Notes under the pieces: model-generated | Told to the model about the DNA's origin: nothing | The model's database searches: none | What the model saw: only the letters and a program-made list of their open reading frames with translations | In this document: one piece after another, positions 7,339 to 23,304 of the stretch | Layout of the letters: each line of letters opens with the position of its first letter | Position numbering within the stretch: position 1 is the stretch's first letter | Source: Telmatocola sphagniphila | Lineage (GTDB): Bacteria; Planctomycetota; Planctomycetia; Gemmatales; Gemmataceae | Reading direction: 5' to 3' | Assembly: GCF_018398935.1 (NCBI RefSeq) | Contig: NZ_CP074694.1 | Location: 4,590,001-4,622,000 of the forward strand | DNA length: 32,000 bases | Position numbers and translations under genes: made by a program

Positions 7339-7352
7339 CACTTATTGAATCT

Positions 7353-7380
7353 CGAGTCGGAACCGTGCGCGGCTCCGACT
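7353..7380. repeat. 12-bp stem hairpin (one mismatch, TGCG loop) in the ParB upstream region
   Basis: GAGTCGGAACCG-tgcg-CGGCTCCGACTC, read directly. Confidence 0.6.
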
Positions 7381-7428
7381 CAAATCGCCCTTGCAGGAAC
7401 TTACTCAAGAATCTCCGAACGTACGCCG

Positions 7429-7446
7429 GACGCTGATTTCAGCGTC
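7429..7446. promoter_or_regulatory. 18-bp palindrome, candidate operator or parS-like site immediately upstream of the ParB-like gene
   Basis: GACGCTGA-tt-TCAGCGTC is a perfect dyad about 20 bp upstream of the AAGGAGG Shine-Dalgarno at 7467-7473. Confidence 0.45.
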
Positions 7447-7477
7447 GCAGGGATTCTTCGTGCTTTAAGGAGGCAAT

Positions 7478-8329
7478 TTGACCGGAATTATGCAACCGAA
7501 ACAAGAACATCCTCTGGAATTCGGTTTGGTCGACGCGGAGAGCTTGATTGTCGATCCGCGCGAGGCCGAACGGCATCTGAGTTCGCCGGAATTCCCGGCC
7601 TTGGTGGAGAGCGTACGCCGGGACGACATTCTGCAGCCGCCGGGCGTCCTGCGGAATCTCCAGGTGGCTTTCGGTACTGGCCGAGTTTTGGCTAAACGTA
7701 AGGCCCGACCGGGCGAGCGCATTTTGGTCTGCTGGCTGCAGGAGTCGATGTCGGAGGCGCAGTTCAACCTTCTGAAATGGGTGGAGAATATGCGTCGCCA
7801 AAACTGGACTCCGACCGAGCAAAGCGACCGGCTTTTTGATCTCAAGCAACTGCATGCGGATCTCAACCAGAAGCAGCTGAGTGATCTGGTGGGACTAACC
7901 CCGACTAAAATCTCGACTCTTCTGGCGGTCTTCAAATGTGCTCCCGAGGTGCAGAAGCTCTATCGGGAAAACCTGCTGACCCCGAGTGATTGTGCCGAGC
8001 TAGCCCAGTTGCCGGTGGAAGTGCAACGCGCCCTGGCCAGCCAACGAGCGAGTGGAGAGATCCTCAATCGCGAGGCCTTGAAGAAGCTTCGCATTCAGCA
8101 TCAGACCTCCGAAACGACGACCGTGAAATCGTCGCGCGTTCGCATGCAGATCGGAGGAGTTCAAATCCTGGTTACGGGAAGCTCGGTCTCCGTGGAAGAT
8201 CTGTCGGAACTCTTCAAAACCGGGCTGAATCACTGTCGTCGTGCGGAAAAAATGCGCTGGGATATTCGCACGCTGGAACGGGTTCTCGGCGATGAAAATC
8301 GGAAGGAGGATCCTCATAGCGAAATTTAA
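7478..8329 (+). CDS. ParB-like (ParB/Srx N-terminal domain) partition or nuclease-family protein
   Basis: The ParB-N-like segment is LIVDPREAERHLSSPEFPALVESVRRDDILQPPGV. The HTH-like segment is LSDLVGLTPTKISTLLAVF. A strong SD lies upstream of the TTG start at 7478. Confidence 0.7.
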   Translation: MTGIMQPKQEHPLEFGLVDAESLIVDPREAERHLSSPEFPALVESVRRDDILQPPGVLRNLQVAFGTGRVLAKRKARPGERILVCWLQESMSEAQFNLLKWVENMRRQNWTPTEQSDRLFDLKQLHADLNQKQLSDLVGLTPTKISTLLAVFKCAPEVQKLYRENLLTPSDCAELAQLPVEVQRALASQRASGEILNREALKKLRIQHQTSETTTVKSSRVRMQIGGVQILVTGSSVSVEDLSELFKTGLNHCRRAEKMRWDIRTLERVLGDENRKEDPHSEI

Positions 8330-10208
8330 TCGGGCAGTTTTGGTTCTGGCCGTCCTGGTCCCGTTCGGTACCGGCTTCGTTTTTTTGATTCGGTTATTAC
8401 CGCCGCCCTTGGTTTTGTTCTTCCTGATTTGTTCGGTCGTTCGACTCAAACGGGTCAGCCCCAGTCTCTGGGCGATGGGGACTGCAAGATGGTCGAACCA
8501 TCAAGACCATCAGCGAGCCGGAATGCTCGAGCCCAACGGCGGGATCATCCTGGGTCGCAGTAGTACCAGTCGTTCACCGCCGCTGCGGGAGGCCATCCGG
8601 GGATTATTCGATCCCTACCTCGATGACGAAACGGCTGTGAATCGGGTGTTGCCGCTCGGACGCAAACGGTGGCAAGTCGAGAGCCAGAACACCTGGGTGC
8701 GAATGCCTCGCTGGGTTCCGCACACCGTAATTTTTGCACCAACGGGCGCTGGCAAAAATGTGTCCATCGCTTCGCCCTTCCTGTTGACCTGCCCCGACAG
8801 TTGCGTCGTGGTCGACTACAAGGGGGAGTTGGCCCGAGACCTAGCGGAATTTCGGAGAAGGCGATTTGGGCATCGGGTGGTTTTGCTGGATCCTTGGCGA
8901 CTCTGCACCGATCAGCCGGACATGCTCAATCCGCTCGATTTTTTCGACGGGCAAGATCCGGAGGTTTTGCAGGAGGCTCTCGACCTGGCCGAGGCCTTGG
9001 TGATACGGACCGGCAAAGAGCATGATCCCCACTGGGCCGATTCGGCCGAGGTGCTCCTGACCGCTCTGATCGTGGCGGTGGCCTTCTTTGCCCCGGAAGC
9101 GGAACGGAATCTCCAAAGCGTTCGCGAACGCTTGATCGATCCGGAGAAGTTTCAAAGTGCGATCCAGGCTTTGTGTGCCTCGGACGCTCTGGGGGGTCGA
9201 TTGCGGCGGTTTGGCCATCAGATGATGGCCTATCGGGATAAGGAGCTGGGATCGGTACTGACAACGGCGAATCGAAGCCTTCGCTTCTTGGATTCCCCGG
9301 CGGTTGGGGAGAGCATGCGGGTGTCGAGTTTTGACCCCGCAGAAATCCGCGAGCGGACAACGGCGTTTTTGATTTTACCGCCAACACATCAGAGGACGCA
9401 ATCGCCTTTGATGCGTTGCTGGCTGACCTGCCTGATACGGGCGGTGGTGAAAGGAGGTTTGCAGGAGAAAAATTTCGTCCACTTTGTTTTGGATGAAAGT
9501 TCGTCCTTAGGACGGATGGACATCTTGATTGACGCGGTCGAAAAATTTCGGGGCTATGGACTGAAATTGCAGTTCTATCTGCAGTCGCTGGGCCAGCTTA
9601 GGCAGCACTATCCGGACGGTTTGGATCTCACGATTTTGTCGAACACGGCGCAGATTTTTTTCGGAATTAACGAGCCGACCACGGCTGATTTTGTGAGTTC
9701 GCGACTCGGGGATGCGACCATCTGGGTGGAGAGCCAAGGCGATGGCGAGGGGAATGGAGTCTCCTCGGGCCGGGGGGGCGTGGAAGGCCGCAACCGAACG
9801 TTCAACACGAGCCGGAACTTCAACCAGCAGTCGAGACGGCTGGCCCGACCGGATGAGCTGATGCGATGGTCGAATCGGATGGCGGTGACTTTTGTGCCCG
9901 GGCTGCCGCCGATTAAGACTCGATTGCTGCGCAGCTACGAGGAGTTGGAATTGTACGAACCTCGCCCTCCTCGGAAGTATGCGAAGTGGCCGTTGGTAGC
10001 GCAGTCGTTAGCGACGTTAATTGCTTCCATCGTGATGGTGGCCTTTGTGGTCGATGTGCTGACTGACAATCAGCCTCGCACCTATCGGACCCGGACGATG
10101 ATGCCCACGGAAGCCAAAAAAGCCGCTTTGCCGAATCAGAAGACCGGCCAAGCACTCAAGGGCGGGAATACTTCCCGACCCGTATCGCCGAAGTCTTCGA
10201 AACGCTAG
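8292..10208 (+). CDS. Type IV secretion coupling protein (VirD4/TraG/TraD family)
   Basis: Two N-terminal hydrophobic segments are present. The Walker A is FAPTGAGKNVS. The Walker B region FVLDESSSLGRMDILIDAVEKFRGYGLKLQFYLQSLGQL is typical of T4CPs. The start is ambiguous (GTG 8241 or ATG 8292) and overlaps the end of the ParB-like gene. Confidence 0.85.
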   Translation: MKIGRRILIAKFNRAVLVLAVLVPFGTGFVFLIRLLPPPLVLFFLICSVVRLKRVSPSLWAMGTARWSNHQDHQRAGMLEPNGGIILGRSSTSRSPPLREAIRGLFDPYLDDETAVNRVLPLGRKRWQVESQNTWVRMPRWVPHTVIFAPTGAGKNVSIASPFLLTCPDSCVVVDYKGELARDLAEFRRRRFGHRVVLLDPWRLCTDQPDMLNPLDFFDGQDPEVLQEALDLAEALVIRTGKEHDPHWADSAEVLLTALIVAVAFFAPEAERNLQSVRERLIDPEKFQSAIQALCASDALGGRLRRFGHQMMAYRDKELGSVLTTANRSLRFLDSPAVGESMRVSSFDPAEIRERTTAFLILPPTHQRTQSPLMRCWLTCLIRAVVKGGLQEKNFVHFVLDESSSLGRMDILIDAVEKFRGYGLKLQFYLQSLGQLRQHYPDGLDLTILSNTAQIFFGINEPTTADFVSSRLGDATIWVESQGDGEGNGVSSGRGGVEGRNRTFNTSRNFNQQSRRLARPDELMRWSNRMAVTFVPGLPPIKTRLLRSYEELELYEPRPPRKYAKWPLVAQSLATLIASIVMVAFVVDVLTDNQPRTYRTRTMMPTEAKKAALPNQKTGQALKGGNTSRPVSPKSSKR

Positions 10209-10217
10209 AGGAGAGAA

Positions 10218-10496
10218 ATGTCGAGACAAAATCGCGAGCGGATCGCCGCTCTGGGGGAAAAGGAAGAAAAGCCTTTCGATTGGAAGGCGATTTTCGAACG
10301 CTTTGTTCGAGAAGTGGATGCCGAATTCCGACGCCTCGGCTCACATGGAGCTTCGGAATTGGCAGCCAGTTTGTACACCGGTTCAGCGTTTGTTCTTTAC
10401 GGTAAGGAACGCGAACAGCTCAACGAGGTTTCGCGGATCAACGAGCAGTTCCGCGAGATCGAACGCCAGCAAGAGGAATTGCAGCGTGGTCTTTAA
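10218..10496 (+). CDS. Hypothetical coiled-coil protein
   Basis: The ATG is preceded by GAGGAG. The composition is charged and helical (EQFREIERQQEELQ). Confidence 0.5.
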   Translation: MSRQNRERIAALGEKEEKPFDWKAIFERFVREVDAEFRRLGSHGASELAASLYTGSAFVLYGKEREQLNEVSRINEQFREIERQQEELQRGL

Positions 10497-10557
10497 CTGG
10501 GGATGGGATTCACACGCGGGGTGTGATGAACATAGTTTCTTTTTGGGGGATAGTTCA

Positions 10558-10776
10558 ATGCGTTTTCCGATTGTGCCTTTGATTAGTACGGTCTGTGCGG
10601 CATTGGGTCTGGGCGGACTCTACTGGTACTACCAGCTGAGTAAAGAAGAGCAGCAAGAGGCGGATCGAATCGCCATGGGCTACGCCCGTAGCCTTTACAA
10701 CAAGACGGTCGAGGAGCTGACCTCCAGCGAGATCGACAAGATCCGGGCTCTCACCAAGAGCCACTTCAGCGCCTAA
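10558..10776 (+). CDS. Small single-TM membrane protein
   Basis: The ATG follows a GGGGGA motif. The hydrophobic N-terminus is IVPLISTVCAALGLGGLYWYY. A hairpin (about 10808-10826) lies downstream. Confidence 0.5.
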   Translation: MRFPIVPLISTVCAALGLGGLYWYYQLSKEEQQEADRIAMGYARSLYNKTVEELTSSEIDKIRALTKSHFSA

Positions 10777-10918
10777 TGCTCAGGCGCTGATCGTCAACCT
10801 TCGGGCTCCAGGGGTTCAAAGCCCCTTGGGCCTTCTTCCACAAACAATCTTCGTAGCAGCGGTGCTGGATCTCTTCCGATGAGGGACTTTCCGGCCTGCT
10901 TTCTGGGAAAGGGGTTTT

Positions 10919-11191
10919 ATGGTTATTGCATCCGTTCATTTGGACACTGAACAGCCAGGGAGAACCTTACGCGAAACCAAGATCGAGATCGCCTGCTCCG
11001 GAGCGAACGTGGCGATGGATTATCTGGAGGGGGACTATACCCCGCAACAGCGGAAGGAAATCCGCCGAGCGATTCGGCGGGGAATCCTGAACGGGATCTT
11101 TGTCTATAGCGATCTCCTGCGGGCGCGAGCCCAGGAATCGGCGAACACCTATTCGGTCTGCCGTTTGGGACTGGGAGGTGATAATGACTAG
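10919..11191 (+). CDS. Hypothetical protein
   Basis: The ORF has an 8-nt overlap with the downstream excisionase-like gene. No recognised motif. Confidence 0.4.
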   Translation: MVIASVHLDTEQPGRTLRETKIEIACSGANVAMDYLEGDYTPQQRKEIRRAIRRGILNGIFVYSDLLRARAQESANTYSVCRLGLGGDND

Positions 11192-11471
11192 TGCGGAGCC
11201 ATTGCTCTCGCAGATCCTCGAGCGGCTCGATCAGTTGCAAATCGGCCTCGATCAACTGGTCGAACGCGAGAAGATCAAAGAGTGGTACACCACCGAAGAA
11301 CTGGCCAAAGTCGTCGGCAAGGCGGAATTTACCGTCCGCGAGTGGTGTCGGCTGGGTCGCATCAAAGCCCAGAAGCGACAGAGTGGCCGGGGCAAGTTCC
11401 TGGCTTGGGTGGTCTCGCACGAGGAGCTTCTGCGATTCCAGCGGGAGGGGTTGCTGCCTCTGAAGAACTGA
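11184..11471 (+). CDS. Excisionase-family / MerR-like HTH DNA-binding protein
   Basis: EWYTTEELAKVVGKAEFTVREWCRLGRIKAQK matches the excisionase-family HTH pattern. It is the last gene before the compositional break. Confidence 0.65.
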   Translation: MTSAEPLLSQILERLDQLQIGLDQLVEREKIKEWYTTEELAKVVGKAEFTVREWCRLGRIKAQKRQSGRGKFLAWVVSHEELLRFQREGLLPLKN

Positions 11472-11506
11472 CTTGTGGTTCACTTTTTTCCATTCTATGT
11501 GTCGCA

Positions 11507-11545
11507 TCCTTCTACACATTCACATATCCCGAATGTGTAGAAGGA
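11507..11545. repeat. Perfect 15-bp inverted repeat (9-nt loop) at the element/island junction
   Basis: TCCTTCTACACATTC-acatatccc-GAATGTGTAGAAGGA, read directly. It lies 36 nt after the excisionase-like stop, and no U-tract follows. Confidence 0.7.
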
Positions 11546-12538
11546 GAATGCGCTTACGCGTGACGAATCTGCCAGTGAACCAGCTTCTATCAATATCTTC
11601 AGCCATTTTTGGGCAAAATTCCTGCGGGGTAGTGAAAATTGCTCTCTTCCCTGGTTTTCATTACCAACGTACATCGCTTAGAGATTTTCGAATTCGGTTA
11701 ACTCTACCTTTACGGGCGCAAGAGAGATGTTGCTGACTTACAACGAGACGAAAAATCCGAACCAGACAAGATCGTAATTAGGCTTAGGCTGAACTACTGC
11801 TTCTCCAGTAGCCAACTTCGTTTCAATTGATTCAAAAAATGCAGAAATCGTCGAATATTTTGAACTTAAGGCAAGTTATTCATCCAAGTGAGAGGTAGCG
11901 GTGTGAAATTCCTAATGCTCAGCTCAAAAGCTCGAGTCGCGATTTTAAAGGCAAATTAATAAAACTATTGGTTGACGATGAAGTCGAAAATAATTATAAA
12001 TTTGTTTGATTGTAAGCAGTATTTCTCACATGGGTTCCAACCCCCAAAAGGAACATTATCGTGATTGAGGCACCTTTGGTCGGATCATTTCTTCAGGAAA
12101 AATCGACGTCAGAAATATTTTTCGCATCCGTCTATTTCAATTTTCCAGATCTAAATGACCAAGCTCTGACGATTCCAACTTACTATGAACTGTTGGCGAT
12201 ACTAGAAACGAGGGCTCAGTAGCTGAGGACGTTTGGTTTTTCTTCTAATTTTTAAGGGAAATGCTACAAGCTATGGTGAACGCGACGTGTGAGGATTTTA
12301 ATAATCGTATTCAGAAGAACCAATTGGTAAACCATCTATTTCCTCGAGTTCAATACTTATCATAATCTCAGATTGTTCCACTGCTACTAACTCTATATTC
12401 TTGGTGGGAGATTTTTCCATTAAAACACAAGATGTATATTATCTTTAGTATTTTTTTCTAGAACCGCTTATCATGACTAGATTTAAAAAGATGCCATCTT
12501 TCGTTCTCTTTTCCTGAACTGAACACTGAGTGAACTTA

Positions 12539-14065
12539 ATGGATACACCTAGCCTAATTTTGCCCTGGGATATAGTTAAACACTCACTTTGTTCAAGTGA
12601 ATTTACTCTGCGCCTAAGGTTAGAAGACTTGGGGAATTCCGATGCGGGTTTGACTAAATGGCTAGAATCTTATAAACGATCAAACTCAAATGAGTCGTCT
12701 TTACCTTCAAATGATCCACGATCCTGGAAAATATATTCTCACGATACAGAGTTGAAAATTATTATTAACGATTCTGGAAATAGTTATGAATCTCATGGTA
12801 GGGCTATCTTCACTCGAATGCGTTGTGGTGAGCAGGTCAGCTTGACCTATCGCCATCTTGGCAAACCAATAATAGTGTCCGATAAGAGAATTTACTTCTT
12901 GCCAAAGAAAATTGATACTAATACTAGGAAATTGATAGAACAACAAATAGAGAATAATGATCTTGAAGCAGAAAATTCGCTAAAAGATCTGACCGCAAAA
13001 TTTAAGCAGCTCGATGATATCGAAGTAGATAACGACATTATAAACCTATTCAATTATCTGAGTTCTCAACCAAAATGCGAAGATGATTATCTACTAAGTT
13101 TTGCTGAATTGCACAACTTCGTTTTTCGACGGCTCCAATCGCGAGGAGATCAAACACTTCCACAGGGACTTTTAATTATCTCAGGAGCCACAAAGTCTGG
13201 TAAAAGTGAGATGTCTCGGGCTCTGATCGCAAGGTGGCTGATACAAGCTCGGTGTGAAAAAAAAGGGTCAGGCTTTCGAAATCCCCATCTACTTACAATT
13301 GAAGATCCGATCGAGAAGCCTCTGTTTAATGAAAAACACACAGATGAAAGTCTCTATCAAAAATACGGGATAGATTACACACCACGACTCATAGGGGTAG
13401 ATTGTGCAAGCGTAAGAAATGTGCTGAATGATGCTCTAAGGCAAACCCCTTCCATCGTTTACATTGGCGAAGTGCGCGGTGGCGATGATTGGAGTGCGAT
13501 TCTCGACTTCGCCGCAACCGGCCATTTCGTTGTTGCCACTGCTCATGCGTCGAGTTTAACCGAAACATTTTTAAGAGTTTTTAATGCGATCGGGGTAAAA
13601 AAACCATCTGATTTCATACAGTATGCACAACGTATTTTTGGTATTGTGAGTTTACGCTCAATTTCTGCAATCGATTTCAAGTCTGGGATTTATCGCTCCG
13701 AGGGCAAGAAAGAATCGACTGTAAAGAAGCTAGGTAATTCTGTTATCGTGCCTTCCTTGTGGCGTAATACTAACGAGGCGATCGCCAAACTTGCAGGCGA
13801 TGGATTAGCATCGCTCTTGCCCTTTAGGCATGGAGTGCCAAATGATTGGACTAAAGCGACCGCATTGTCCGGTACCCAGGGTCGAGCGAGCTGTCTCGAG
13901 TGGTTACTGGCATACCATCTATCTAATGAACCGATGAAATCTTGGATTTACTCGAATAAAGAAAATCTCAATTCTGTTACAAATTTTTCTAAGGAAGAAC
14001 TTAAAATAATCTTAGCATCTCAATGGCTCAGAAGAGCCATTGCGCTTGACCTCGAAGGAACTTAG
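12539..14065 (+). CDS. PilT/VirB11/FlaI-family (type II/IV secretion-type) hexameric ATPase with a unique ~210-aa N-terminal domain
   Basis: The Walker A is GATKSGKS (nt 13184-13207). The Asp-box-like motif is HLLTIEDPIEKPL. The Walker B region is LRQTPSIVYIGEVRGGDDW. The His-box-like motif is GHFVVATAHASS. The start is GTG 12530 or ATG 12539. Confidence 0.8.
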   Translation: MDTPSLILPWDIVKHSLCSSEFTLRLRLEDLGNSDAGLTKWLESYKRSNSNESSLPSNDPRSWKIYSHDTELKIIINDSGNSYESHGRAIFTRMRCGEQVSLTYRHLGKPIIVSDKRIYFLPKKIDTNTRKLIEQQIENNDLEAENSLKDLTAKFKQLDDIEVDNDIINLFNYLSSQPKCEDDYLLSFAELHNFVFRRLQSRGDQTLPQGLLIISGATKSGKSEMSRALIARWLIQARCEKKGSGFRNPHLLTIEDPIEKPLFNEKHTDESLYQKYGIDYTPRLIGVDCASVRNVLNDALRQTPSIVYIGEVRGGDDWSAILDFAATGHFVVATAHASSLTETFLRVFNAIGVKKPSDFIQYAQRIFGIVSLRSISAIDFKSGIYRSEGKKESTVKKLGNSVIVPSLWRNTNEAIAKLAGDGLASLLPFRHGVPNDWTKATALSGTQGRASCLEWLLAYHLSNEPMKSWIYSNKENLNSVTNFSKEELKIILASQWLRRAIALDLEGT

Positions 14066-14069
14066 GCAC

Positions 14070-17000
14070 ATGGCAATTAACGAGCGAAAAAGCAGTAGAT
14101 TGAGATTCGGGATTTACGAACTTGATTATCTCTTGAATAAGGACAATCGTTGTGTTTTTGCTGAGTCGGTGACGGCGATGAATTCTCAAGAAGACCTCCC
14201 ACCGGAACCTAAAGAAGTTCACTCAACAGCCCCAGACACCAAACCTGCACTAGGATGTCTTGAGATTGAGGCCGTGAACTCGGGATGCATGAGCCTCTGC
14301 ATCTTAGGACCCGATGGGACTGGCAAATCCCTTTTGGCTTTACACCTCGCTAACCATTACTTGGTTGATGCTAAAACAATTGGAAATTGCCAGCCTTTGG
14401 CGCTCTATTTCTCGACGGATCTCTCTCAGTCCCAAGCTGAGACTTCGTGGAAAGCATTTGCTCTGGACAATCCTCAACTCAGGTGGGAAGAGCTACCATC
14501 CTTTGCTAAAGGATCGGACGGTGAAAAACCTACACTGAACAACATTGGGTTTCGCGGGGTGAAACCATTTCTAGAGCACGACGGATCTCATAACAGCCTC
14601 CTAAGCTCACTTTGTGTGGGGAATCTGCCTTCCGATCCTATTGAGTTGTTTTTTTTAGACAGTCAGGCTAAACCATGCGGCGATGACTGGCTATATTTGA
14701 GTCGTTTTATAAGTACTTTACCTCTTCCCTCAGGTGACAGTTGGCCCCATCTTTTATTGATTGATGCAGTCGAAGGGTTAGAACCCGCTTTCGGTCGTCG
14801 TGATATATTCGGGCATGAGTCGGCAGGCCGAACTCGTCTAGCGCAATTGATTCGTGCGGCTCGAGAAAAGTGTCATATTGTATATGTTGTCGAGGAGCCA
14901 AGGCCAGGAGAGACTCTAGATACGCAATATGTTACAGACGTCGTAATTCGTCTGACAGTTGAAAAGACGGGTAATTATTCTCATCGAACAATTGAGGTCG
15001 AAAAAGCCAGAGGTGCTCAGCACATTCGCGGACAGCACGATTTTGCGATTCGATCTGGTGTTGGCTCTGCAACGGGTGAGCAGGTGAATGCAGACGATCC
15101 TAAAGTTCCTCGGCTCAAAAATACTCATAGAGAAAATATCGCTTACATGCATGTAATGCGATCACTACATTCAATGAGTAGACAGGTGCTCGAATTACCC
15201 TCAGGAGAAACGCCTGACATCAACCCAAGACGAGACAAAGTTTATGGGTTTGGGATCAAATATCTGGATAGCCTTCTTCCAAGAGTCGAGAGTAGTCAGG
15301 GAGACGAAAGAACAAATGGCTTGATCGGCGGTACGGCCTCAGCTCTCATTGGACCTTTAACCACACACAAGAGTCGTCTAGCGCGAGCGTTTTTAGCTCA
15401 AGTTTTGCCCGATGGTCTGGATGATTATCTTGAATCGCTTGAATCCGGGAAGCAACCTTCACTAAAGCCCACTATCAAAGAACTAGGAGTATTAATCTCG
15501 ACTCAAAGAGTGGACCGATCTGTACTTTTCCGAACTGCATGGCAGCATCGTTTTGGTAAACCATTTGCAGCGAAAGACACTGCGCAAGCCGTCCGACATA
15601 CAACGAAATTGATCGAAGATAATTTGTGTCCGTTTATCGTACGCAGGCTTGAAGTTCATCGCTATTCGTCGCAAGGGATAGTACATGTAATCAAAGAGTC
15701 CATTCAAAGTGCTCAGCAGCAATTACTCAATCTTAGTGATCCATCAGGGAACTTATATAAAGTTGAGGTAAAAGAGAAACACGGAACAACGAAGACACGC
15801 GAAATTTGTCGTAATATAAGATTTGTGTTCGATGATTGGCATGTCTTTCAAGATACTTTTCCCGAAGCTGCGCAAGATCCCATGCTGCTACCACACATTT
15901 TTCACTTCCTTAGTCGCCAAGGCATCACGGCACTTTTTCTCGACACTGAACCTGGCATTCCATTAATGCCGGACGCACATTCTGATGTTACGCTCCGAGC
16001 TTTGGCTTCAAGACACTTATATACATGGCTTGTGCCATTTTACGGAGAACGAAGGATTGCAATAACGACAACACCTCCTGCTGCATCAGGAGTACCTTCC
16101 CCAATATTCGAACTTAGGCCACGTAGAGTCGAGCAAAGTACACAGTTTGAAGACGAACAATTGATTGTTGATCCTCACTTTGAAATGTACACAGGCTTGG
16201 AATCTTCAGATATCAAAAGAGTAGCACTAAAAGTGATCCTTTATAACGGTGCAAAGAAAAAGTCCGACGAGGAGCCTATTGAAGGAGAGTACATCACAAC
16301 AATTCGCCAACTGATGAGTGACCTATTCGGGAATGAGGATCACTCGACACTCGAAACGGTCGACAGTGCAGGATACGATCGGATGCGGGATTACGTCTAT
16401 CTGCAAGATGGAACTCGCCTAGATCATACTTTAGTTATGCAAGTTGATGAATTCTGGTCGGAGAGCATCCCGTCGTTAGCAGACTTGACAGATTATATGA
16501 ATGATGAAACCGACATCAATGAAAAAGAATTAAGTGATATTGAAGATCCATCTCGGCTTCGTAGGGGACAGAGGAGTCGATTGGAGGTATTTAATGTTGT
16601 CACAAAAAAATTTAAGAATGACTACAATTTGTATTTCAACAAAGAGAAAAAACCACTTCGAATAGACAAGGTTCCATTTCTTTGGGATTTTGGCTTCTTA
16701 TTAGCAAATCGTGAGCAGTGGCTCTCCATAGCAAAATCGCAACCAAACTCATCAGAGATTTGGTCGGCTCTTTCGGTATTTGAACTCAATTCAGGTGAAT
16801 ATCATAAAAAACTGGGATCAGAGAAAGACAGATATATTAGTTGGTATCAGTTCTTCGGCATATGTGAACTCGCTCGGAGTCGAGGATATATCCCTTTTGA
16901 TATCGACTTGCAAACATCAGAAGTTCTCTCCTGTTTAGTCCTTGAAGTTTGGTGCTCGATTTTGCTCGATTTGCGTATAAAACTGCCAGATCAGATACTT

Positions 17001-17849
17001 AACGGCATTAGACATGATGAAGCAACTATGTCGACAGGACTAGTCGAATTGATCGATCTTAAAGATGAAAAAGGTGTTAAATGCGGTGAACTGGCATTGG
17101 CATTGGCGTTACAACTCATTTTTAGTAACCTTCCAAAAATGGAAATTGAGGGCGGCTCTTTTGTATGTCGCCCTGCAAATCCGAATGCGTTTACTGCGAG
17201 ACACTATTATTCGACTGCTGCTCGAAAAAACTATAACTCCGGCCGTTTAGTTCCACTAAAGCTGCCGGGATGGTTCTCTGTTCGTGGTGATTGGTTTTTA
17301 GGGCTCGCAAAAGGAAGTCGGTCACCTCGGCTTGGCTTAAGAGCTATGGACTTATTATGTAGTACCAGAGGCAATTTTGAACGACTCAGAGCAGGAATTG
17401 GATTACCAGTACGCGAGATCTTGAGTGATGATAGTGTAGGTTCTGTCCGAACTGCGCTCGTGGCTCCATGGAAAAGTGATTTGACTCCCAATATGGATAT
17501 TGGACATATCACACTGGAAGCGCTTTATGCCATCGCACCTGACAGCAATCCTTCAGAACCCAATAAACCACAGTTCAACTTTCTCTGGCGATCTTTGCTG
17601 CAACACTACGATCAGACATCCAGGCGATTTCACAGATGGTTAGGACGAATGTACCTTATGCATGACGCATGGAGAATTCATTTCAAAGCATTAGAAGACT
17701 CTTGTTGGAAGGATCTTGGATCTTTACAAGATGGAATAAGCAATGCTATCAAAGACATTGAAGAGCAGGAACGGAACAAAAAAACCGAGGATAAATTTTC
17801 CACTCAAATAGAATTACTACGCTCGATGTTAAAGCAAGGAATAGATTAA
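14070..17849 (+). CDS. Giant KaiC/RecA-like ATPase: two tandem KaiC-like domains plus a C-terminal solute-binding-protein-like region
   Basis: Domain 1 has RLRFGIYELDYLL, Walker A GPDGTGKS (nt 14307-14330), Walker B HLLLIDAVEGLEP and the KaiC-like tail RTIEVEKARGAQHIRGQHDFAI. Domain 2 has YGFGIKYLDSLL and a degenerate P-loop GPLTTHKS. The C-terminal half has segments resembling family-1 SBPs (VMQVDEFWSESIPSLADLTDYM and GDWFLGLAKGSRSPRLGLRAMDLLCS). The ATG at 14070 lies 4 nt after the upstream stop. Confidence 0.8.
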   Translation: MAINERKSSRLRFGIYELDYLLNKDNRCVFAESVTAMNSQEDLPPEPKEVHSTAPDTKPALGCLEIEAVNSGCMSLCILGPDGTGKSLLALHLANHYLVDAKTIGNCQPLALYFSTDLSQSQAETSWKAFALDNPQLRWEELPSFAKGSDGEKPTLNNIGFRGVKPFLEHDGSHNSLLSSLCVGNLPSDPIELFFLDSQAKPCGDDWLYLSRFISTLPLPSGDSWPHLLLIDAVEGLEPAFGRRDIFGHESAGRTRLAQLIRAAREKCHIVYVVEEPRPGETLDTQYVTDVVIRLTVEKTGNYSHRTIEVEKARGAQHIRGQHDFAIRSGVGSATGEQVNADDPKVPRLKNTHRENIAYMHVMRSLHSMSRQVLELPSGETPDINPRRDKVYGFGIKYLDSLLPRVESSQGDERTNGLIGGTASALIGPLTTHKSRLARAFLAQVLPDGLDDYLESLESGKQPSLKPTIKELGVLISTQRVDRSVLFRTAWQHRFGKPFAAKDTAQAVRHTTKLIEDNLCPFIVRRLEVHRYSSQGIVHVIKESIQSAQQQLLNLSDPSGNLYKVEVKEKHGTTKTREICRNIRFVFDDWHVFQDTFPEAAQDPMLLPHIFHFLSRQGITALFLDTEPGIPLMPDAHSDVTLRALASRHLYTWLVPFYGERRIAITTTPPAASGVPSPIFELRPRRVEQSTQFEDEQLIVDPHFEMYTGLESSDIKRVALKVILYNGAKKKSDEEPIEGEYITTIRQLMSDLFGNEDHSTLETVDSAGYDRMRDYVYLQDGTRLDHTLVMQVDEFWSESIPSLADLTDYMNDETDINEKELSDIEDPSRLRRGQRSRLEVFNVVTKKFKNDYNLYFNKEKKPLRIDKVPFLWDFGFLLANREQWLSIAKSQPNSSEIWSALSVFELNSGEYHKKLGSEKDRYISWYQFFGICELARSRGYIPFDIDLQTSEVLSCLVLEVWCSILLDLRIKLPDQILNGIRHDEATMSTGLVELIDLKDEKGVKCGELALALALQLIFSNLPKMEIEGGSFVCRPANPNAFTARHYYSTAARKNYNSGRLVPLKLPGWFSVRGDWFLGLAKGSRSPRLGLRAMDLLCSTRGNFERLRAGIGLPVREILSDDSVGSVRTALVAPWKSDLTPNMDIGHITLEALYAIAPDSNPSEPNKPQFNFLWRSLLQHYDQTSRRFHRWLGRMYLMHDAWRIHFKALEDSCWKDLGSLQDGISNAIKDIEEQERNKKTEDKFSTQIELLRSMLKQGID

Positions 17850-17852
17850 TCG

Positions 17853-18269
17853 CTAAAAGCTTCTGCCAGACATGATCTTCGTCTGGTTTTTTTCAGATAG
17901 CAGCTCTTTCGAGGCGGCGTCAAACGCTTCCTTCGATGCTTCTGAAAAATCCTTGAGATTGCTACAGTGCCTTCTATAGACGGCCTCCATGGATCCTTCG
18001 GTTGAAACTGTAATGTCCCATTCACGCGGCTTATGTCTCCAACGAGAACACCAACCCCTGACTAAAGGTTTAGTTTCGCCAAAGTCAAATACTAGTCCGT
18101 CATCTGCTGTCTTAAAATTTGGTTTTTGGTTGATTGATGGCTCTGCATTATAAAAAGCCGTGATCATAGCTCTGACGGCATCTAAATATTCGATCCCCGT
18201 CGCAGTCCCCTCCTGAACGGGACCACTATTTTCTCTGGTTGCATCAACTTCATTCATAACTTCCTCCAA
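17853..18269 (-). CDS. Hypothetical protein, convergent with the KaiC-like gene
   Basis: This is a 138-aa ORF with protein-like composition. Its stop lies 3 nt from the stop of the 14070-17849 gene. It shares the AT-rich composition of the island. Confidence 0.5.
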   Translation of the reverse strand: MEEVMNEVDATRENSGPVQEGTATGIEYLDAVRAMITAFYNAEPSINQKPNFKTADDGLVFDFGETKPLVRGWCSRWRHKPREWDITVSTEGSMEAVYRRHCSNLKDFSEASKEAFDAASKELLSEKNQTKIMSGRSF

Positions 18270-18509
18270 GTTTAGACTAGTATTTATCGCTAATACACCG
18301 CTAAGGGAATTTCTCCAAGCACTATTTCTAAAATCGGTTTTATTTCTGTTCCAATATGATTTTATCTGCAGTTTTGCTGCAATAATAGGCCATGTGATTG
18401 AAATATACCTAGAATGGACGTAGGTACGAAAATTGCCATAAGTAACTTAAATAACTGGATTTGCAGTGCGAACAAGTTGCGAAGCTAATGTGACTGAAAG
18501 TGGTCTTAA

Positions 18510-18566
18510 CTAGCCTCAGGAGCTAGTCCTCGCAAGGGGGTGCAGGTTCAACTCCTGTCCTCGGCA
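18510..18566 (+). tRNA. tRNA-Leu(CAG)-like 3' portion (anticodon arm, long variable arm, T-arm, 3' acceptor strand). It is probably a truncated or pseudo-tRNA acting as an integration scar.
   Basis: The anticodon stem-loop is CTAGC-CTCAGGA-GCTAG (U33, anticodon CAG, G37). The variable arm is CCTC-GCAA-GGGG. The T-arm is GCAGG-TTCAACT-CCTGT. The 3' acceptor is CCTCGGC plus discriminator A. The required 5' acceptor GCCGAGG and a foldable D-arm are not found upstream; only a loosely similar GCGAAGC...GAAAGTGGT occurs at 18479-18509. Confidence 0.55.
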
Positions 18567-18582
18567 TCTCAATTAACGAAAA

Positions 18583-18611
18583 GGCCTGCGGTTCCTACCG
18601 CGGGCCTTTTT
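18583..18611 (+). terminator. Rho-independent terminator downstream of the tRNA-like sequence
   Basis: GGCCTGCGG-ttccta-CCGCGGGCC is followed by TTTTT. Confidence 0.75.
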
Positions 18612-21845: not shown

Positions 21846-23279
21846 TCATTGACTTCCCGCCAGGCGATAGGCCAGGCAGACAATCTTGGCGTTAAGATCG
21901 TTATTTAGATCATCTAATAATTCTTGCTCTGATCTCGTTTTACGATCCATCATCGATTCTAGAGCCTGAATACCCCGCTCGAAAATCAACCGCTCCTTCA
22001 GACAGACATGTACTAAAATTTGGCGAATCCTCCTGAAAGTCAATGAGCCGCGCAAATTGGGAAAAGAGATCTCCCCGAGAAGTCTTTTCAATTCCGCCTT
22101 TAGCCAGGGACTTTCAACATCGGTCTCGGAATCATCCGTTCGCCAAAGTTCGTTCATCAGAGCCGCATGCAGAAGCGAATTGATAACCGGCGCCACAACT
22201 GCAACCTTCTCCAGTCGGTTCAGCCATTTGATGGGCCGGATCTCCATTGAGTTTAGAAAGCCCAGATAGTCGGCCGTGCAGGTTATGGAGTCGTTCAACC
22301 AGTTCGCCGCCAGAATTTCAAACACGTAAGGTATTGGCGGCATCCGGGCCTGAAGGGATTTCCAACTCAGGCGAATCAGCTGCAAGGATTCACAACGATC
22401 CAGCTGGTAATTGCGGTCGCTGCGCATTGCGAAGGAATTCAGATAAACGAGGATTCGATCCAGTAACTGACTCGCCCGATTCTCATTCATCGGCAACCAG
22501 GCGACGTAATCGAACATCTGAAGGACGAGGCGGAAAGCCAGATCTTCGTCGACTTCTGTGTAATGCTGCTTCAGTGTCTCAAAGTCCTCGATGAATTGCA
22601 GTATATCCGAGGTTTCCCAGAGCGCGCGATAGCGGATTTGATACCAGTGCGATAAGTGGAGGCTCGTGCTGGGCAAGTTCTTCAGTTCCAAAAATTCCGG
22701 AGTGTTCACCAGCGTTGCGTCGACAAAAATTTCCCGGCGCAGCAGTTCAGTCAGAGGCTCCGCCCAACCGAACCGTTTGAGTCCCTCATAAAGCCAATTG
22801 GTCTCGGGACAGAGATTCTTAACCTCCGAAAACAGTTCGCACAACCAGTAAAGTTGCACGTAGTGAATGGGAGTGGCCTGAAGTTCCGTGACGAGACGAT
22901 TCAAACCCCGGTAGGCCTCCAGGAGTTGACCATCCACGGCCATCTGCCAGAAGTCGGTGAGCTGCGGAGCCGTATGACCTTCGGGACCGGTACTTGTAAT
23001 TGTGAAAGCTGGCTGAAAGCTGTTCGGTTCAAAATTTACAATCAGCGAACTCGTTGCCGTGAGGTCGTCTGCTTCCTGATCTTCGAAGCGCTGCAGAAAT
23101 TCGTAGTGCTCGCGAATTTTTCGAAACTGTTCCGGATGATGTTCGGGCCGAAAGCGACGAATCAGCTTGTTATAGCTCCGCTTCAGATCCTCGCGAGTGA
23201 ATCGATTCGAAAGACCGAAAAGTTCCCGCGGATTAGCAGGCCAATGTTTGAGATCTTCGGGCAGATCTTCCGGAGGCAT
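21846..23279 (-). CDS. J-domain-like protein (HPE instead of HPD) with a large uncharacterised C-terminal domain
   Basis: The N-terminus ELFGLSNRFTREDLKRSYNKLIRRFRPEHHPEQFRKIREHYEFL follows the J-domain helix II / HPD / helix III layout, with E at the D position. It is the last gene of the Hsp70 operon. Confidence 0.6.
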   Translation of the reverse strand: MPPEDLPEDLKHWPANPRELFGLSNRFTREDLKRSYNKLIRRFRPEHHPEQFRKIREHYEFLQRFEDQEADDLTATSSLIVNFEPNSFQPAFTITSTGPEGHTAPQLTDFWQMAVDGQLLEAYRGLNRLVTELQATPIHYVQLYWLCELFSEVKNLCPETNWLYEGLKRFGWAEPLTELLRREIFVDATLVNTPEFLELKNLPSTSLHLSHWYQIRYRALWETSDILQFIEDFETLKQHYTEVDEDLAFRLVLQMFDYVAWLPMNENRASQLLDRILVYLNSFAMRSDRNYQLDRCESLQLIRLSWKSLQARMPPIPYVFEILAANWLNDSITCTADYLGFLNSMEIRPIKWLNRLEKVAVVAPVINSLLHAALMNELWRTDDSETDVESPWLKAELKRLLGEISFPNLRGSLTFRRIRQILVHVCLKERLIFERGIQALESMMDRKTRSEQELLDDLNNDLNAKIVCLAYRLAGSQ

Positions 23280-23304
23280 GGGATCTTTTATCCTTCAGGT
23301 AGGA

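What the first reader, a model, noticed from the sequence alone, without database searches (positions are those of the whole stretch)
12530..18269. Candidate undescribed system: orphan PilT/FlaI-type ATPase coupled to a giant double-KaiC-like ATPase with an SBP-like sensor domain
Two ATPases from different ring-forming families are encoded 4 nt apart (stop 14065, ATG 14070). No pilin, platform (PilC/GspF-like), secretin or T4SS gene accompanies them, so this is not a pilus or secretion locus. The only established partnership I know between these two families is the archaellum motor, where the secretion-type ATPase FlaI/ArlI binds the KaiC-like protein FlaH/ArlH. Here the KaiC-like partner is expanded to about 1260 aa. 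It has an intact first P-loop, a degenerate second one and a ligand-binding-like C-terminus. The module sits on an AT-rich island beside an integrative element and a tRNA scar. That context, together with the NTPase-plus-sensor logic, fits a novel defence, abortive-infection or conflict system. A signalling machine is the alternative.
Basis: partly seen in the sequence, partly recalled or inferred. Interest (0 to 1): 0.88.

Follow-up and report, generated by a model that had tools for sequence, protein, structure and literature searches.

The report
Mobile KaiC-sensor plus PilT-like ATPase pair
Two tightly coupled genes, an orphan pilus-motor-type ATPase and a giant double-KaiC ATPase with an internal sugar-binding-protein-like domain, form a conserved, mobile, undescribed two-gene module found across several bacterial phyla, and its function is still unknown.

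Summary
Gene A (12539-14065, 508 aa) is a DotB/PilT-type two-domain secretion ATPase with all catalytic motifs. Gene B starts 4 nt later (14070-17849, 1259 aa). It has an intact KaiC domain, a degenerate second KaiC domain, a MalE-type solute-binding-protein fold and a helical tail. The pairing is not chance: 45 of 48 related loci with upstream DNA, from six or more phyla, keep A directly upstream of B. The junction is translationally coupled and A and B divergence is correlated. No third gene is conserved, including any pilin, platform, secretin or T4SS gene. The cassette sits in unrelated neighbourhoods and usually has lower GC than its flanks. A sister clade with the same KaiC-KaiC-SBP protein carries an HD phosphohydrolase instead of A in 6 of 6 contexts, so the upstream enzyme is a swappable output. 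My best reading is a ligand-gated KaiC ring that controls a partner enzyme, carried as a mobile accessory module, possibly for conflict or defence. A defence role is unproven. PADLOC gives no hit, neighbours show no clear defence-island enrichment, and no copies occur in phage or plasmid collections. I found no description in the searchable literature.

The parts
11472..12538 (+). AT-rich non-coding leader upstream of gene A. The promoter presumably lies here. One weak sigma-70-like site is at 12414-12442.
   Evidence: No ORF of 60 aa or more, and none conserved. GC is 37%. Promoter-like sites are not enriched over shuffles. No Rfam family reaches threshold.
12539..14065 (+). Gene A: a 508-aa orphan DotB/PilT-type secretion-superfamily ATPase. 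It has an N-terminal PilT-NTD-like domain with helical inserts (aa 1-~200), an ATPase core (aa ~200-376) and a family-specific C-terminal extension (aa 377-508). Motifs: Walker A GATKSGKS (K222), Asp box TIEDPIE, Walker B GEVR, His box TGHFVVATAHA.
   Evidence: Pfam T2SSE E 2e-15. NCBIfam pilT_fam scores 70 bits against a cutoff of 319. PDB PilT and DotB sequences match at E 1e-12 to 1e-9. AF2 pLDDT is 75.9. Foldseek finds DotB, PilT4 and PilU at E 7e-14, with about 400-440 aligned columns. The motifs are conserved across 25 and 40 homologues.
14054..14069 (+). Coupling junction. A Shine-Dalgarno-like GAAGGA lies inside the last codons of A (the conserved D-L-E-G tail). It is followed by the TAG stop and a 4-nt spacer before the ATG of B.
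   Evidence: Read directly from the sequence. An SD-like motif is present in 36 of 44 loci, and the [WFL]DL.G tail in about 38 of 44. In 34 of 43 loci the A stop lies 40 nt or less from the codon of B's conserved N-terminal FGI motif.
14070..15194 (+). Gene B, domain 1 (aa 1-375): a KaiC/RecA-like ATPase domain with an intact Walker A GPDGTGKS (K86), Walker B LLIDAVEG and the KaiC C-terminal motif EKARG..H..G.H.F.I. The usual KaiC catalytic Glu-Glu position reads S-T-D.
   Evidence: Pfam KaiC 28 bits. The family profile matches PDB KaiC at E 1e-14. STDL aligns to SLEE of the sister clade.
15222..16145 (+). Gene B, domain 2 (aa 385-692): a second, degenerate KaiC-like domain. Its P-loop GPLTTHKS keeps the lysine but has lost the glycine before it. 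A Walker-B-like FVFDDW is kept.
   Evidence: hhalign of domain 1 against domain 2 gives probability 92%. Nine of 10 homologous segments hit Pfam KaiC, best E 2.4e-9.
16164..17606 (+). Gene B, domain 3 (aa ~699-1179): a cytoplasmic type-II periplasmic-binding-protein fold of the MalE / sugar-SBP class, and the presumed ligand sensor. It carries the SBP signature LPG..RGDWFLG.AKGS.S...A...L....G.GLPVR and many invariant Trp residues.
   Evidence: AF2 pLDDT 83.5, pTM 0.89. Foldseek finds MalE3, TMBP, CbpB and UgpB at E 2.5e-10 to 1e-6, probability 1.0. Invariant columns are listed. The domain occurs in 518 representative clusters, almost always at the C-terminus of 1100-1800-aa proteins. No signal peptide or TM segment.
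17607..17849 (+). Gene B, C-terminal helical hairpin tail (aa 1180-1259) and stop codon.
   Evidence: The AF2 secondary structure shows helices from H491 to H569 of the 570-aa model.

Best explanation
The two genes encode a self-contained cytoplasmic two-ATPase machine carried on a horizontally mobile cassette. B most likely assembles, as KaiC does, into a double-ring hexamer. Ring 1 binds ATP, ring 2 is a degenerate structural or regulatory ring, and six MalE-type ligand-binding domains sit on the outside. A is co-translated with B and most likely forms a DotB/PilT-type hexamer that docks on the B ring, as ArlI docks on the KaiC-like ArlH and DotB on DotO. Ligand binding to the SBP-like domain would be transmitted through the KaiC rings to switch A's ATPase on or off. 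A is therefore the output enzyme and B the sensor and regulator. In the sister clade the same scaffold drives an HD phosphohydrolase instead. The module does not build a pilus or a secretion channel. Its biological role is most likely that of an accessory conflict, defence or stress module whose output is nucleotide-consuming enzymatic activity. Shown here: domain identities, conserved adjacency, translational coupling, correlated divergence of A and B, absence of any third conserved gene, shifting genomic locations, low GC, and the partner swap. Inferred: hexamer stacking (about 0.8 that A and B interact physically), regulation of A by B (about 0.6), a conflict or defence role (about 0.4), and nucleotide depletion as the effect (about 0.2).
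For: Domains. Pairing: A lies directly upstream on the same strand in 45 of 48 B loci with upstream DNA, across Acidobacteriota, Planctomycetota, Verrucomicrobiota, Armatimonadota and Burkholderiales. Only A and B recur in all-against-all ORF clustering, and there is no small conserved ORF. The junction is tight and carries an embedded SD. A and B distance matrices correlate at r=0.90, Mantel 0/2000. All catalytic motifs of A and of B domain 1 are conserved. Mobility: the cassette has lower GC than its flanks in 30 of 41 loci, median -3.2 points, p=2e-5. The 12 closest B pairs (58-79% identity) share no flanking ORF. In this window the pair sits in a low-GC island with an integrase, TraG, an excisionase-like HTH and a tRNA-like fragment. 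Modularity: sister family B2 is homologous to B over 953 columns (hhalign E 2.4e-56). It is preceded by an HD-CE/HD protein in 6 of 6 contexts, and that protein has no similarity to A. In two genomes whose flanks are 82-90% identical, the HD-B2 cassette sits in different slots and is only about 50% identical. Precedent for a KaiC-like protein binding and modulating a secretion-type ATPase: ArlH-ArlI (PMC8978795).
Against: Neither protein hits PADLOC. The nearest neighbours are overwhelmingly housekeeping or metabolic: only about 11 of 139 give PADLOC matches at E<=1e-10, and some of those models are generic. No copies occur in 2.9 M viral contigs, 72,556 plasmids or 50,697 phage genomes, so there is no demonstrated link to mobile-element warfare. 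A PilT-type ATPase is an unusual effector, and all known members act on a membrane platform or another machine. In B the KaiC catalytic Glu-Glu is replaced by Thr-Asp, so ring 1 may bind ATP rather than hydrolyse it. The A/B distance correlation could partly reflect shared host phylogeny. Three loci carry B without A (L018, L021, L053).
Confidence: 0.4

Rival explanations
1. A metabolite-responsive regulator of a machine encoded elsewhere. B senses a cytoplasmic oligosaccharide or related metabolite with its MalE-like domain. It then controls A, which acts in trans as an alternative motor or retraction ATPase on the host's own type IV pilus, Tad or T2SS platform. The result would be a motility or adhesion decision linked to carbohydrate status.
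For: A has the complete DotB/PilT two-domain fold and catalytic motifs. The sensor domain is closest to oligosaccharide-binding SBPs. The hosts are soil and aquatic Acidobacteriota, Planctomycetota, Verrucomicrobiota and Myxococcales, which by general knowledge are polysaccharide degraders with type IV pili. In archaea, KaiC-like proteins regulate T4P-type motors (PMC8978795). Most neighbours are housekeeping.
Against: No pilus or secretion gene is ever linked to the pair. A scores far below the PilT family cutoff (70 against 319 bits), and the region corresponding to PilT's AIRNLIRE motif has diverged (the motif is recalled from general knowledge). The sister clade replaces the motor with an HD hydrolase on the same scaffold, which argues against a pilus-specific role. 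Shifting locations and low GC are unusual for a core regulator.
Confidence: 0.2
2. A KaiC-type timer or stress-signalling module with no conflict role. B acts as a slow ATPase or autokinase (an hourglass) whose state is set by a metabolite bound to the SBP-like domain. A or the HD partner is a downstream enzyme in a physiological stress response.
For: B has a tandem KaiC architecture. Non-clock KaiC homologues are proposed as signalling hubs (titles retrieved). Chromosomal contexts are housekeeping. The family is absent from phages and plasmids.
Against: No KaiA, KaiB, histidine kinase or response regulator partner is conserved nearby. B scores far below the KaiC equivalog cutoff (21 against 408 bits). 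The catalytic Glu-Glu is replaced in B. The cassette has low GC and no synteny even between 79% identical copies. Cassette proteins are 50% identical within 82-90% identical flanks. These features point to turnover typical of accessory genes.
Confidence: 0.15
3. A polymer-handling machine. The PilT-type motor and the KaiC/RecA-type rings together translocate or remodel a cytoplasmic polymer (a glucan, another glycan or nucleic acid), and the MalE-like domains hold that polymer.
For: Both ATPase families are ring translocases or motors by established knowledge. The SBP-like domain is closest to oligosaccharide binders and is rich in invariant Trp residues.
Against: No glycan-metabolism gene is consistently linked; PGM occurs in 2 of 139 neighbours and a GH5 gene appears once. 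The swap to an HD partner does not fit a motor-specific mechanism. No DNA-binding domain was detected.
Confidence: 0.08
4. An accessory ATPase pair of the conjugative or integrative element in this window, with A acting as a DotB/TraJ-like energiser working with the nearby TraG/VirD4 coupling protein.
For: TraG/VirD4 lies 2.3 kb upstream, alongside an integrase and an excisionase-like HTH. A gives weak hits to plasmid TraJ and DotB models.
Against: None of the other roughly 50 loci has T4SS genes next to the pair. There is no match in 72,556 plasmids. The TraJ and DotB scores are far below cutoff (52 against 368 bits and 47 against 463 bits).
Confidence: 0.02

Closest known systems
Archaellum ArlH (KaiC-like) - ArlI (FlaI, secretion-superfamily ATPase) pair
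   Same: A KaiC-family protein is encoded beside a T2SS/T4P-superfamily hexameric ATPase and acts on it. ATP-bound ArlH binds and stimulates ArlI, and its autophosphorylation releases it. A double-ring ArlI-ArlH model has been proposed from cryoET (PMC8978795). This is the best precedent for how A and B could work together.
   Different: By general knowledge ArlH is a small single-domain KaiC-like protein. B is 1259 aa with two KaiC domains plus an SBP fold. A belongs to the DotB/PilT branch, not FlaI (NCBIfam FlaI 26 bits against a cutoff of 550). There is no ArlJ platform, archaellin or ArlCDE/X. The pair is bacterial, mobile and stands alone as two genes.
PilT/PilU retraction ATPases and DotB of the Dot/Icm T4BSS
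   Same: The same two-domain fold (Foldseek E 7e-14 to 1e-12 over about 400-440 columns). Walker A, Asp box, Walker B and His box are all conserved. By general knowledge DotB works by docking onto another ATPase ring (DotO).
   Different: Scores are far below every family cutoff (pilT_fam 70 against 319; DotB 47 against 463). A has extra helical inserts in the N-terminal half and a 130-aa C-terminal extension. No pilus, T2SS or T4SS genes are linked in other genomes.
Cyanobacterial clock protein KaiC
   Same: Tandem RecA-like KaiC domains. The family profile matches PDB KaiC at E 1e-14, and the second domain of homologues hits Pfam KaiC.
   Different: NCBIfam KaiC gives 21 bits against a cutoff of 408. 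No kaiA or kaiB is present. The catalytic Glu-Glu of domain 1 is replaced by Thr-Asp, and the second P-loop is degenerate. There are 570 extra C-terminal residues.
MalE / trehalose-maltose-binding protein class of ABC-transporter solute-binding proteins
   Same: The type-II periplasmic-binding-protein fold with the class signature near the C-terminal lobe (Foldseek E 2.5e-10, probability 1.0, TM about 0.6 normalised to the target).
   Different: No signal peptide or lipobox. The domain is fused behind cytoplasmic ATPase domains. There is no sequence-level match to any SBP, and no permease or ABC ATPase is consistently adjacent (ABC_tran in 3 of 139 neighbours).
STAND NTPase sensors (MalT, Avs/NLR-like antiviral proteins)
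   Same: The same logic: an oligomerising NTPase with a C-terminal ligand or target sensor controls an effector. The effector is exchangeable between clades (here PilT-like against HD).
   Different: The NTPase is RecA/KaiC-type, not STAND. Only faint precomputed nSTAND3 or NACHT hits appear on some homologues. The effector is a separate polypeptide.
Sister cassette found here: HD-CE phosphohydrolase + KaiC-KaiC-SBP protein (uncharacterised)
   Same: The large protein is homologous to B over its full length (hhalign probability 100%, E 2.4e-56, 953 columns). The two-gene layout, tight spacing and variable neighbourhoods are the same.
   Different: The upstream partner is a 515-600-aa protein with an N-terminal HD domain (Pfam PF24391, E up to 1e-16) and is unrelated to A. 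Domain 1 of B2 keeps the canonical KaiC S-L-E-E catalytic motif.

Membership tests
Type IV pilus / T2SS / T4SS machinery (PilT, PilB, GspE, DotB, VirB11 ATPases) | ATPase with the T2SSE fold and Walker A, Asp box, Walker B and His box motifs | tested here: met
   Pfam T2SSE E 2e-15. Foldseek DotB/PilT E 7e-14. Motifs are conserved.
Type IV pilus / T2SS / T4SS machinery (PilT, PilB, GspE, DotB, VirB11 ATPases) | Reaches the curated score of a named family (PilT/PilU, DotB, TraJ, GspE, VirB11, FlaI) | tested here: not met
   The best score is pilT_fam at 70.5 bits against a cutoff of 319. All 13 NCBIfam hits are far below their cutoffs.
Type IV pilus / T2SS / T4SS machinery (PilT, PilB, GspE, DotB, VirB11 ATPases) | Co-encoded platform protein (PilC/GspF), pilins or pseudopilins, a secretin, or a T4SS channel | tested here: not met
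   No third gene recurs across 55 loci. None is present in 7 Pfam-annotated contexts. No family recurs in more than 3 of 139 neighbours. Only this window has a TraG/VirD4 gene, 2.3 kb upstream.
Archaellum ArlH-ArlI module | A KaiC-like protein encoded next to a secretion-superfamily ATPase | tested here: met
   The genes are adjacent with a 4-nt spacer, and the arrangement is conserved in 45 of 48 loci.
Archaellum ArlH-ArlI module | The ATPase is FlaI/ArlI, and ArlJ, archaellins and ArlCDE/X are present | tested here: not met
   NCBIfam FlaI gives 26 bits against a cutoff of 550. No such neighbours are present. The hosts are bacterial.
Archaellum ArlH-ArlI module | Physical ring-on-ring interaction in which the KaiC-like partner modulates the ATPase | not testable with these tools
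   No multimer prediction or biochemistry was available. The only support is indirect: translational coupling and correlated divergence.
KaiC circadian oscillator | Tandem KaiC domains | tested here: met
KaiC circadian oscillator | Reaches the KaiC equivalog score, has catalytic Glu-Glu in both domains, and has KaiB/KaiA partners | tested here: not met
   21 bits against a cutoff of 408. S-T-D replaces S-x-E-E in domain 1. The second P-loop is degenerate. No conserved partner other than A was found.
ABC-transporter solute-binding proteins (MalE class) | Type-II periplasmic-binding-protein fold | tested here: met
   Foldseek E 2.5e-10, probability 1.0, with 915 PDB chains at E<=1e-3; the 50 best listed are all ABC-transporter solute-binding proteins.
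ABC-transporter solute-binding proteins (MalE class) | Exported (signal peptide or lipobox) and linked to permease and ABC ATPase genes | tested here: not met
   The domain is internal to a cytoplasmic protein, with no hydrophobic N-terminus or TM segment. No transporter genes are conserved nearby.
ABC-transporter solute-binding proteins (MalE class) | Binds a small ligand in the inter-lobe cleft | not testable with these tools
   Model coordinates could not be inspected. Many invariant Trp, Arg, Asp and Ser residues are present, but they were not mapped to the cleft.
Known anti-phage defence systems (PADLOC-DB v2.0.0) | Protein matches a model of a known or candidate defence system | tested here: not met
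   A gives only a 27-residue P-loop match to mad8 at E 0.004, and B gives none. The sister-clade proteins give only weak mad8 P-loop matches.
Known anti-phage defence systems (PADLOC-DB v2.0.0) | Enrichment next to other defence genes (defence islands) | tested here: inconclusive
   About 11 of 139 nearest neighbours give PADLOC matches at E<=1e-10, with no genomic background for comparison and some generic models. Most annotated contexts are housekeeping. Transposase or integrase genes are adjacent in 3 contexts.
Known anti-phage defence systems (PADLOC-DB v2.0.0) | Protection against phage or plasmids when expressed | not testable with these tools
   An experiment is required.

The most novel reading that the evidence does not exclude
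This would be the founding member of a new class of modular immune or conflict sensors built on KaiC. A hexameric double-KaiC ring uses a cytoplasmic MalE-type domain to recognise an invader-derived or stress-derived ligand, such as a glycan, a nucleotide-sugar or a modified nucleic-acid component. It then unleashes a dedicated nucleotide-consuming partner: a DotB/PilT-type ATPase in this clade and an HD phosphohydrolase in the sister clade. The cell is arrested by NTP or dNTP depletion. This would be the first defence system to use either a KaiC-family sensor or a secretion-motor ATPase as effector.
Probability: 0.2. Interest if true: 0.9.

Novelty: categorically new. Interest (0 to 1): 0.75.

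Why it matters
If this is real, it adds a new type of two-component protein machine to bacterial biology. The clock-family ATPase KaiC would serve as a ligand-gated hub, using an internalised solute-binding-protein fold as its sensor to control interchangeable enzymes. It would extend the KaiC-like / secretion-ATPase partnership, known so far only from the archaellum motor, to bacteria and to a setting with no filament. It would also give PilT/DotB-type motors a role outside pili and secretion. The family is substantial: at least 240 clusters at 50% identity at E<=1e-30, from six or more phyla, mostly uncultured soil and freshwater lineages. It is absent from defence databases and from the literature I could search. 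One cultured carrier, Rhizobacter sp. OV335, and the compact 5.3-kb cassette make it directly testable. If the conflict reading is right, it opens a new sensor and effector class for anti-phage immunity. If the signalling reading is right, it shows how large-genome environmental bacteria couple metabolite sensing to motor ATPases.

Tried and rejected
(1) Pilus or secretion locus: rejected, because no platform, pilin, secretin or T4SS gene recurs.
(2) Conjugation accessory of the local element: rejected as a general explanation, because TraG is linked only in this window and there are no plasmid matches.
(3) ORF 17853-18269 (-) as a third component: rejected, because it has no homologue in any locus and no family hit.
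(4) A small conserved ORF or RNA near the cassette: none found.
(5) A shared docking domain between A and the HD partner: hhalign found none.
(6) A PDB sequence match for the HD partner: none.
(7) A literature source for Pfam 'HD-CE': two searches and one full-text look-up returned nothing relevant.
(8) Literature on KaiC with PilT-like proteins or defence systems: nothing describes this pair.
(9) The metagenome scan for the sister family was swamped by a generic Walker A pattern and returned only 6 loci. Look-ups of individual proteins were used instead.
(11) Hanks kinases, one with a CHAT domain, lie near 4 cassettes. I judged this to be chance in kinase-rich phyla.
(12) A second copy of the tRNA-like 3' fragment, which would define the island ends: not present in the window.

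Full report
OBSERVATION. Two long ORFs lie on the + strand: 12530..14065 and 14040..17849. With the first ATG codons the products are A (12539-14065, 508 aa) and B (14070-17849, 1259 aa). They are separated by a TAG stop and a 4-nt spacer. An independent gene call on a public Logan contig carrying the identical locus gives the same two products. The region has low GC (37-46%) against 52-57% in its flanks.

GENE A. A matches Pfam T2SSE (E 2e-15) over aa 211-358 only. Its closest PDB sequences are PilT, PilU and DotB, at E 1e-12 to 1e-9. It scores far below every curated NCBIfam cutoff, for example pilT_fam at 70 against 319 bits, DotB at 47 against 463 and FlaI at 26 against 550. An AF2 model built on 25 sequences (pLDDT 75.9, pTM 0.80) aligns over about 400-440 columns to full-length DotB, PilT4 and PilU (Foldseek E 7e-14 to 1e-12). 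A therefore has both the N-terminal and the ATPase domains of a secretion ATPase, plus helical inserts and a 130-aa C-terminal extension. The Walker A lysine (K222), Asp box (T-x-E-D-P-[IV]-E), Walker B (G-E-x-R) and His box ([TS]GH...T.HA) are invariant or nearly so across homologues. A is probably catalytically active.

GENE B. On its own B matches KaiC only weakly (28 bits, aa 285-329). A 37-sequence family profile matches PDB KaiC at E 1e-14. Domain 1 (aa 1-375) has an intact Walker A (GPDGTGKS), a Walker B (DAVEG) and the KaiC C-terminal motif. The position of KaiC's catalytic Glu-Glu reads S-[TS]-D-L throughout the family. Domain 2 (aa 385-692) has a degenerate P-loop (G....[QHYF]K[ST]) but is still KaiC-like. 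Profile comparison of domain 1 with domain 2 gives 92% probability, and 9 of 10 homologous second domains hit Pfam KaiC, best E 2.4e-9. The C-terminal 570 aa were modelled with 53 sequences (pLDDT 83.5, pTM 0.89). The 50 best Foldseek PDB hits listed are ABC-transporter sugar-type solute-binding proteins, including MalE3, trehalose/maltose-binding protein, CbpB, a sophoro-oligosaccharide-binding protein and UgpB (E 2.5e-10 downward, probability 1.0). About 80 residues of helical hairpins follow the SBP fold. There is no signal peptide or TM segment, so this SBP fold is cytoplasmic.

IS THE PAIRING REAL? A scan of one genome per species (GTDB) found 55 loci encoding B relatives. The hosts include Acidobacteriota (Pyrinomonadaceae, Terriglobia, Blastocatellia, Bryobacteraceae), Planctomycetota (Singulisphaera, Gemmataceae, Pirellulaceae, Rubripirellula), Verrucomicrobiia, Armatimonadota, Myxococcales and Burkholderiales. 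Nearly all are MAGs; the one cultured isolate is Rhizobacter sp. OV335. Of the 48 B-family loci with enough upstream DNA, 45 have an A homologue immediately upstream on the same strand. The exceptions are L018, L021 and L053. All-against-all clustering of every ORF of 70 aa or more in these loci recovers only A and B as recurrent families, plus antisense shadows of them. A search for smaller conserved ORFs found none. In 34 of 43 loci the A stop lies 40 nt or less from the codon of B's conserved N-terminal FGI motif. This places B's start within a few nucleotides of A's stop. A's conserved C-terminal tail [WFL]-D-L-x-G is encoded by a GGAGG/AAGGAG-like Shine-Dalgarno motif in 36 of 44 loci. 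Pairwise divergence of A and of B is tightly correlated (r=0.90, Mantel 0/2000, 40 loci). An exhaustive phmmer search with the SBP-like region alone finds 518 representative clusters (241 at E<=1e-30). Almost all of the matches sit at the C-terminus of 1100-1800-aa proteins, so this domain essentially exists only in this architecture.

CONTEXT AND MOBILITY. In seven Pfam-annotated contexts the pair is flanked by unrelated genes. These include LpxI and carboxyltransferase, a tRNA synthetase and Mur ligase, ribosomal proteins with EF-Tu and an IS481 transposase, xanthine dehydrogenase and a peptidase, and an rve transposase with glycosyltransferases. The 139 nearest neighbour ORFs hit 164 different Pfam families, and none appears in more than 3 loci. 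About 11 PADLOC matches reach E<=1e-10. The 12 most similar B pairs (58-79% identity) share no flanking ORF. The cassette has lower GC than its flanks in 30 of 41 loci (median -3.2 points, down to -13.7; Wilcoxon p=2e-5). No relative occurs in IMG/VR viral contigs, PLSDB plasmids or INPHARED phages.

In this window the pair lies at the right end of a low-GC island. The island carries a PIN gene, a tyrosine integrase, a tyrosinase, a ParB-HTH protein, a TraG/VirD4 coupling protein and an HTH_17 excisionase-like gene. It is followed by a tRNA-like 3' fragment with an intact T-arm and a terminator-like hairpin at 18484-18606. Here the cassette is plausibly cargo of an integrative element, but that is not its general context.

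A SISTER CASSETTE WITH A DIFFERENT PARTNER. In the Myxococcales locus L021 a B-family gene lacks A. Convergent to it lies a distant paralogue (1225 aa) preceded by a 603-aa protein with Pfam HD-CE/HD. The paralogue's family (B2; at least 30 proteins) is homologous to B over 953 aligned columns (hhalign probability 100%, E 2.4e-56). It has the same KaiC-KaiC-SBP layout but keeps the canonical S-L-E-E catalytic motif. In 6 of 6 independent contexts B2 is immediately preceded by the HD protein. That protein shows no similarity to A, matches no PDB sequence and gives no PADLOC hit. Two genomes with 82-90% identical flanking genes carry the HD-B2 cassette in different slots of the same syntenic block, and the cassette proteins are only about 50% identical. 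So the large KaiC-KaiC-SBP protein is the constant element and the upstream enzyme is exchangeable. The cassettes relocate and diverge much faster than their surroundings.

MECHANISM (inferred). The constant, sensor-bearing, oligomerising NTPase and the exchangeable upstream enzyme suggest a sensor/regulator-plus-output logic. For this clade, the archaellum pair gives a structural precedent. ATP-bound, unphosphorylated hexameric ArlH (KaiC-like) binds and stimulates the ArlI hexamer (PMC8978795). By general knowledge, DotB also works by docking on another ATPase ring. I therefore propose that a B double-ring hexamer docks an A hexamer and gates its ATPase in response to a ligand bound by the MalE-like domains. 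The Thr-Asp replacement of KaiC's catalytic Glu-Glu suggests that ring 1 acts more as a nucleotide-dependent switch than as a fast hydrolase.

The biological role is open. Shifting locations, low GC, rapid divergence and the partner swap resemble accessory conflict systems. Both alternative partners are nucleotide-phosphate-hydrolysing enzymes, which would fit nucleotide depletion. Against this, there is no PADLOC hit, no clear defence-island signal and no phage or plasmid carriage, and a PilT-type ATPase is an unusual effector. My estimates are: physical A-B complex about 0.8, B regulates A about 0.6, conflict or defence role about 0.4, nucleotide-depletion effect about 0.2. The rivals are a sugar-responsive regulator of a pilus or secretion machine encoded elsewhere (0.2), a KaiC-type timer or stress-signalling module (0.15), a polymer-handling machine (0.08) and a conjugation accessory (0.02).

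COMPARISON WITH KNOWN SYSTEMS AND NOVELTY. The pair fails the membership tests for pilus, T2SS or T4SS systems (no machinery, sub-cutoff scores). It fails those for the archaellum (no ArlJ or archaellins, and A is not FlaI). It fails those for the Kai clock (no KaiA or KaiB, sub-cutoff, altered catalytic residues). It fails those for ABC transporters (the SBP fold is cytoplasmic and fused). It matches no model in PADLOC-DB v2. Full-text searches of 7.7 M PMC papers and 0.34 M bioRxiv preprints for KaiC with PilT-like, T2SSE, defence or conflict terms returned nothing describing it. I rate it an undescribed kind of two-gene system built from known domains. The function is not established, and the rating rests on architecture and comparative genomics only.

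Noticed in passing
window 18484-18606 (+): A tRNA-like fragment. Rfam tRNA scores 22.2 bits against a gathering score of 29 (E 0.07), and ARAGORN calls nothing. The 3' half (long variable arm, T-arm GCAGGTTCAACTCCTGT, acceptor 3' strand) looks intact. The 5' half is degenerate. A terminator-like hairpin with a T-run follows. It is probably the displaced 3' part of a class-II tRNA marking the right end of the island. No second copy exists in the window.
   Followed up: partly
L021:9714-15196 (-), L064, L065, L070:5280-10486, L072:5451-10723, L074:5433-10522: A sister two-gene cassette. A 515-600-aa protein with an N-terminal HD-CE/HD domain sits immediately upstream of a KaiC-KaiC-SBP protein that is homologous to B over its full length. 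The arrangement holds in 6 of 6 contexts. Neither protein is in PADLOC, and the HD partner has no PDB sequence match.
   Followed up: partly
L072 vs L074: The flanking genes are 82-90% identical and syntenic. The HD-B2 cassette sits in different slots (after GltD in one genome, between AIRC and a beta-CASP gene in the other), and its proteins are only about 50% identical. This indicates independent insertion or rapid turnover.
   Followed up: yes
L021:2731-9714 (+) and L018:1089-4973 (+): Two Myxococcales loci carry a B-family gene without any PilT-like gene upstream. In L021 the upstream gene encodes an 805-aa protein with a GH5 cellulase domain, and the orphan B is convergent with the HD-B2 cassette.
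   Followed up: partly
window 916-11471: Island content upstream of the pair: a PIN-domain gene (916-1365) overlapping a tyrosine integrase (1362-2378); a tyrosinase with DUF7868 (2435-3979, -); a 508-aa ORF with no family hit (4186-5712, -); a ParB-HTH protein (7478-8329); a TraG/VirD4 coupling protein (8241-10208); and an HTH_17 excisionase-like gene (11184-11471). No VirB4 or other T4SS channel gene was seen, so this may be a mobilisable or decayed integrative element.
   Followed up: partly
window 17853-18269 (-): A 134-138-aa ORF convergent with B. It is also called as a gene on the public contig, but it has no Pfam, NCBIfam or PADLOC hit and no homologue in any of the related loci.
   Followed up: yes
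window 21846-26005 (-): Three minus-strand ORFs in a row: an Hsp70-family protein (24266-26005), a 334-aa ORF with no family hit (23305-24309) and a 477-aa protein with only a weak DnaJ match (21846-23279). This may be a non-canonical Hsp70 module.
   Followed up: no
L031:13624-15690, L041:11397-14930 (-), L054:13263-14270, L055:12603-14714: Hanks-type Ser/Thr kinases (one fused to CHAT, one to TPR repeats) lie 1-5 kb downstream of the cassette in 4 of about 45 loci. This is probably chance in kinase-rich phyla.
   Followed up: partly
L013 and L056 (both from Verrucomicrobiia MAG SMAG_U6430): Two separate contigs of one MAG each carry a B-family gene. L056 also carries an A gene. A single genome may therefore hold two copies.
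   Followed up: no
neighbour set A6: Three neighbour ORFs match the PADLOC model mad3 (MADS system), best E 1.9e-103. Single ORFs match UzuA, AriA, NsnB and PDC-M72A. I did not identify which loci these come from or whether complete systems are present.
   Followed up: no
window 536-575: A perfect 17-nt inverted repeat with a 6-nt spacer (TGGAGTATATCCCATAA / TTATGGGATATACTCCA) lies upstream of the PIN and integrase genes. It could be an operator or a recombination site.
   Followed up: no
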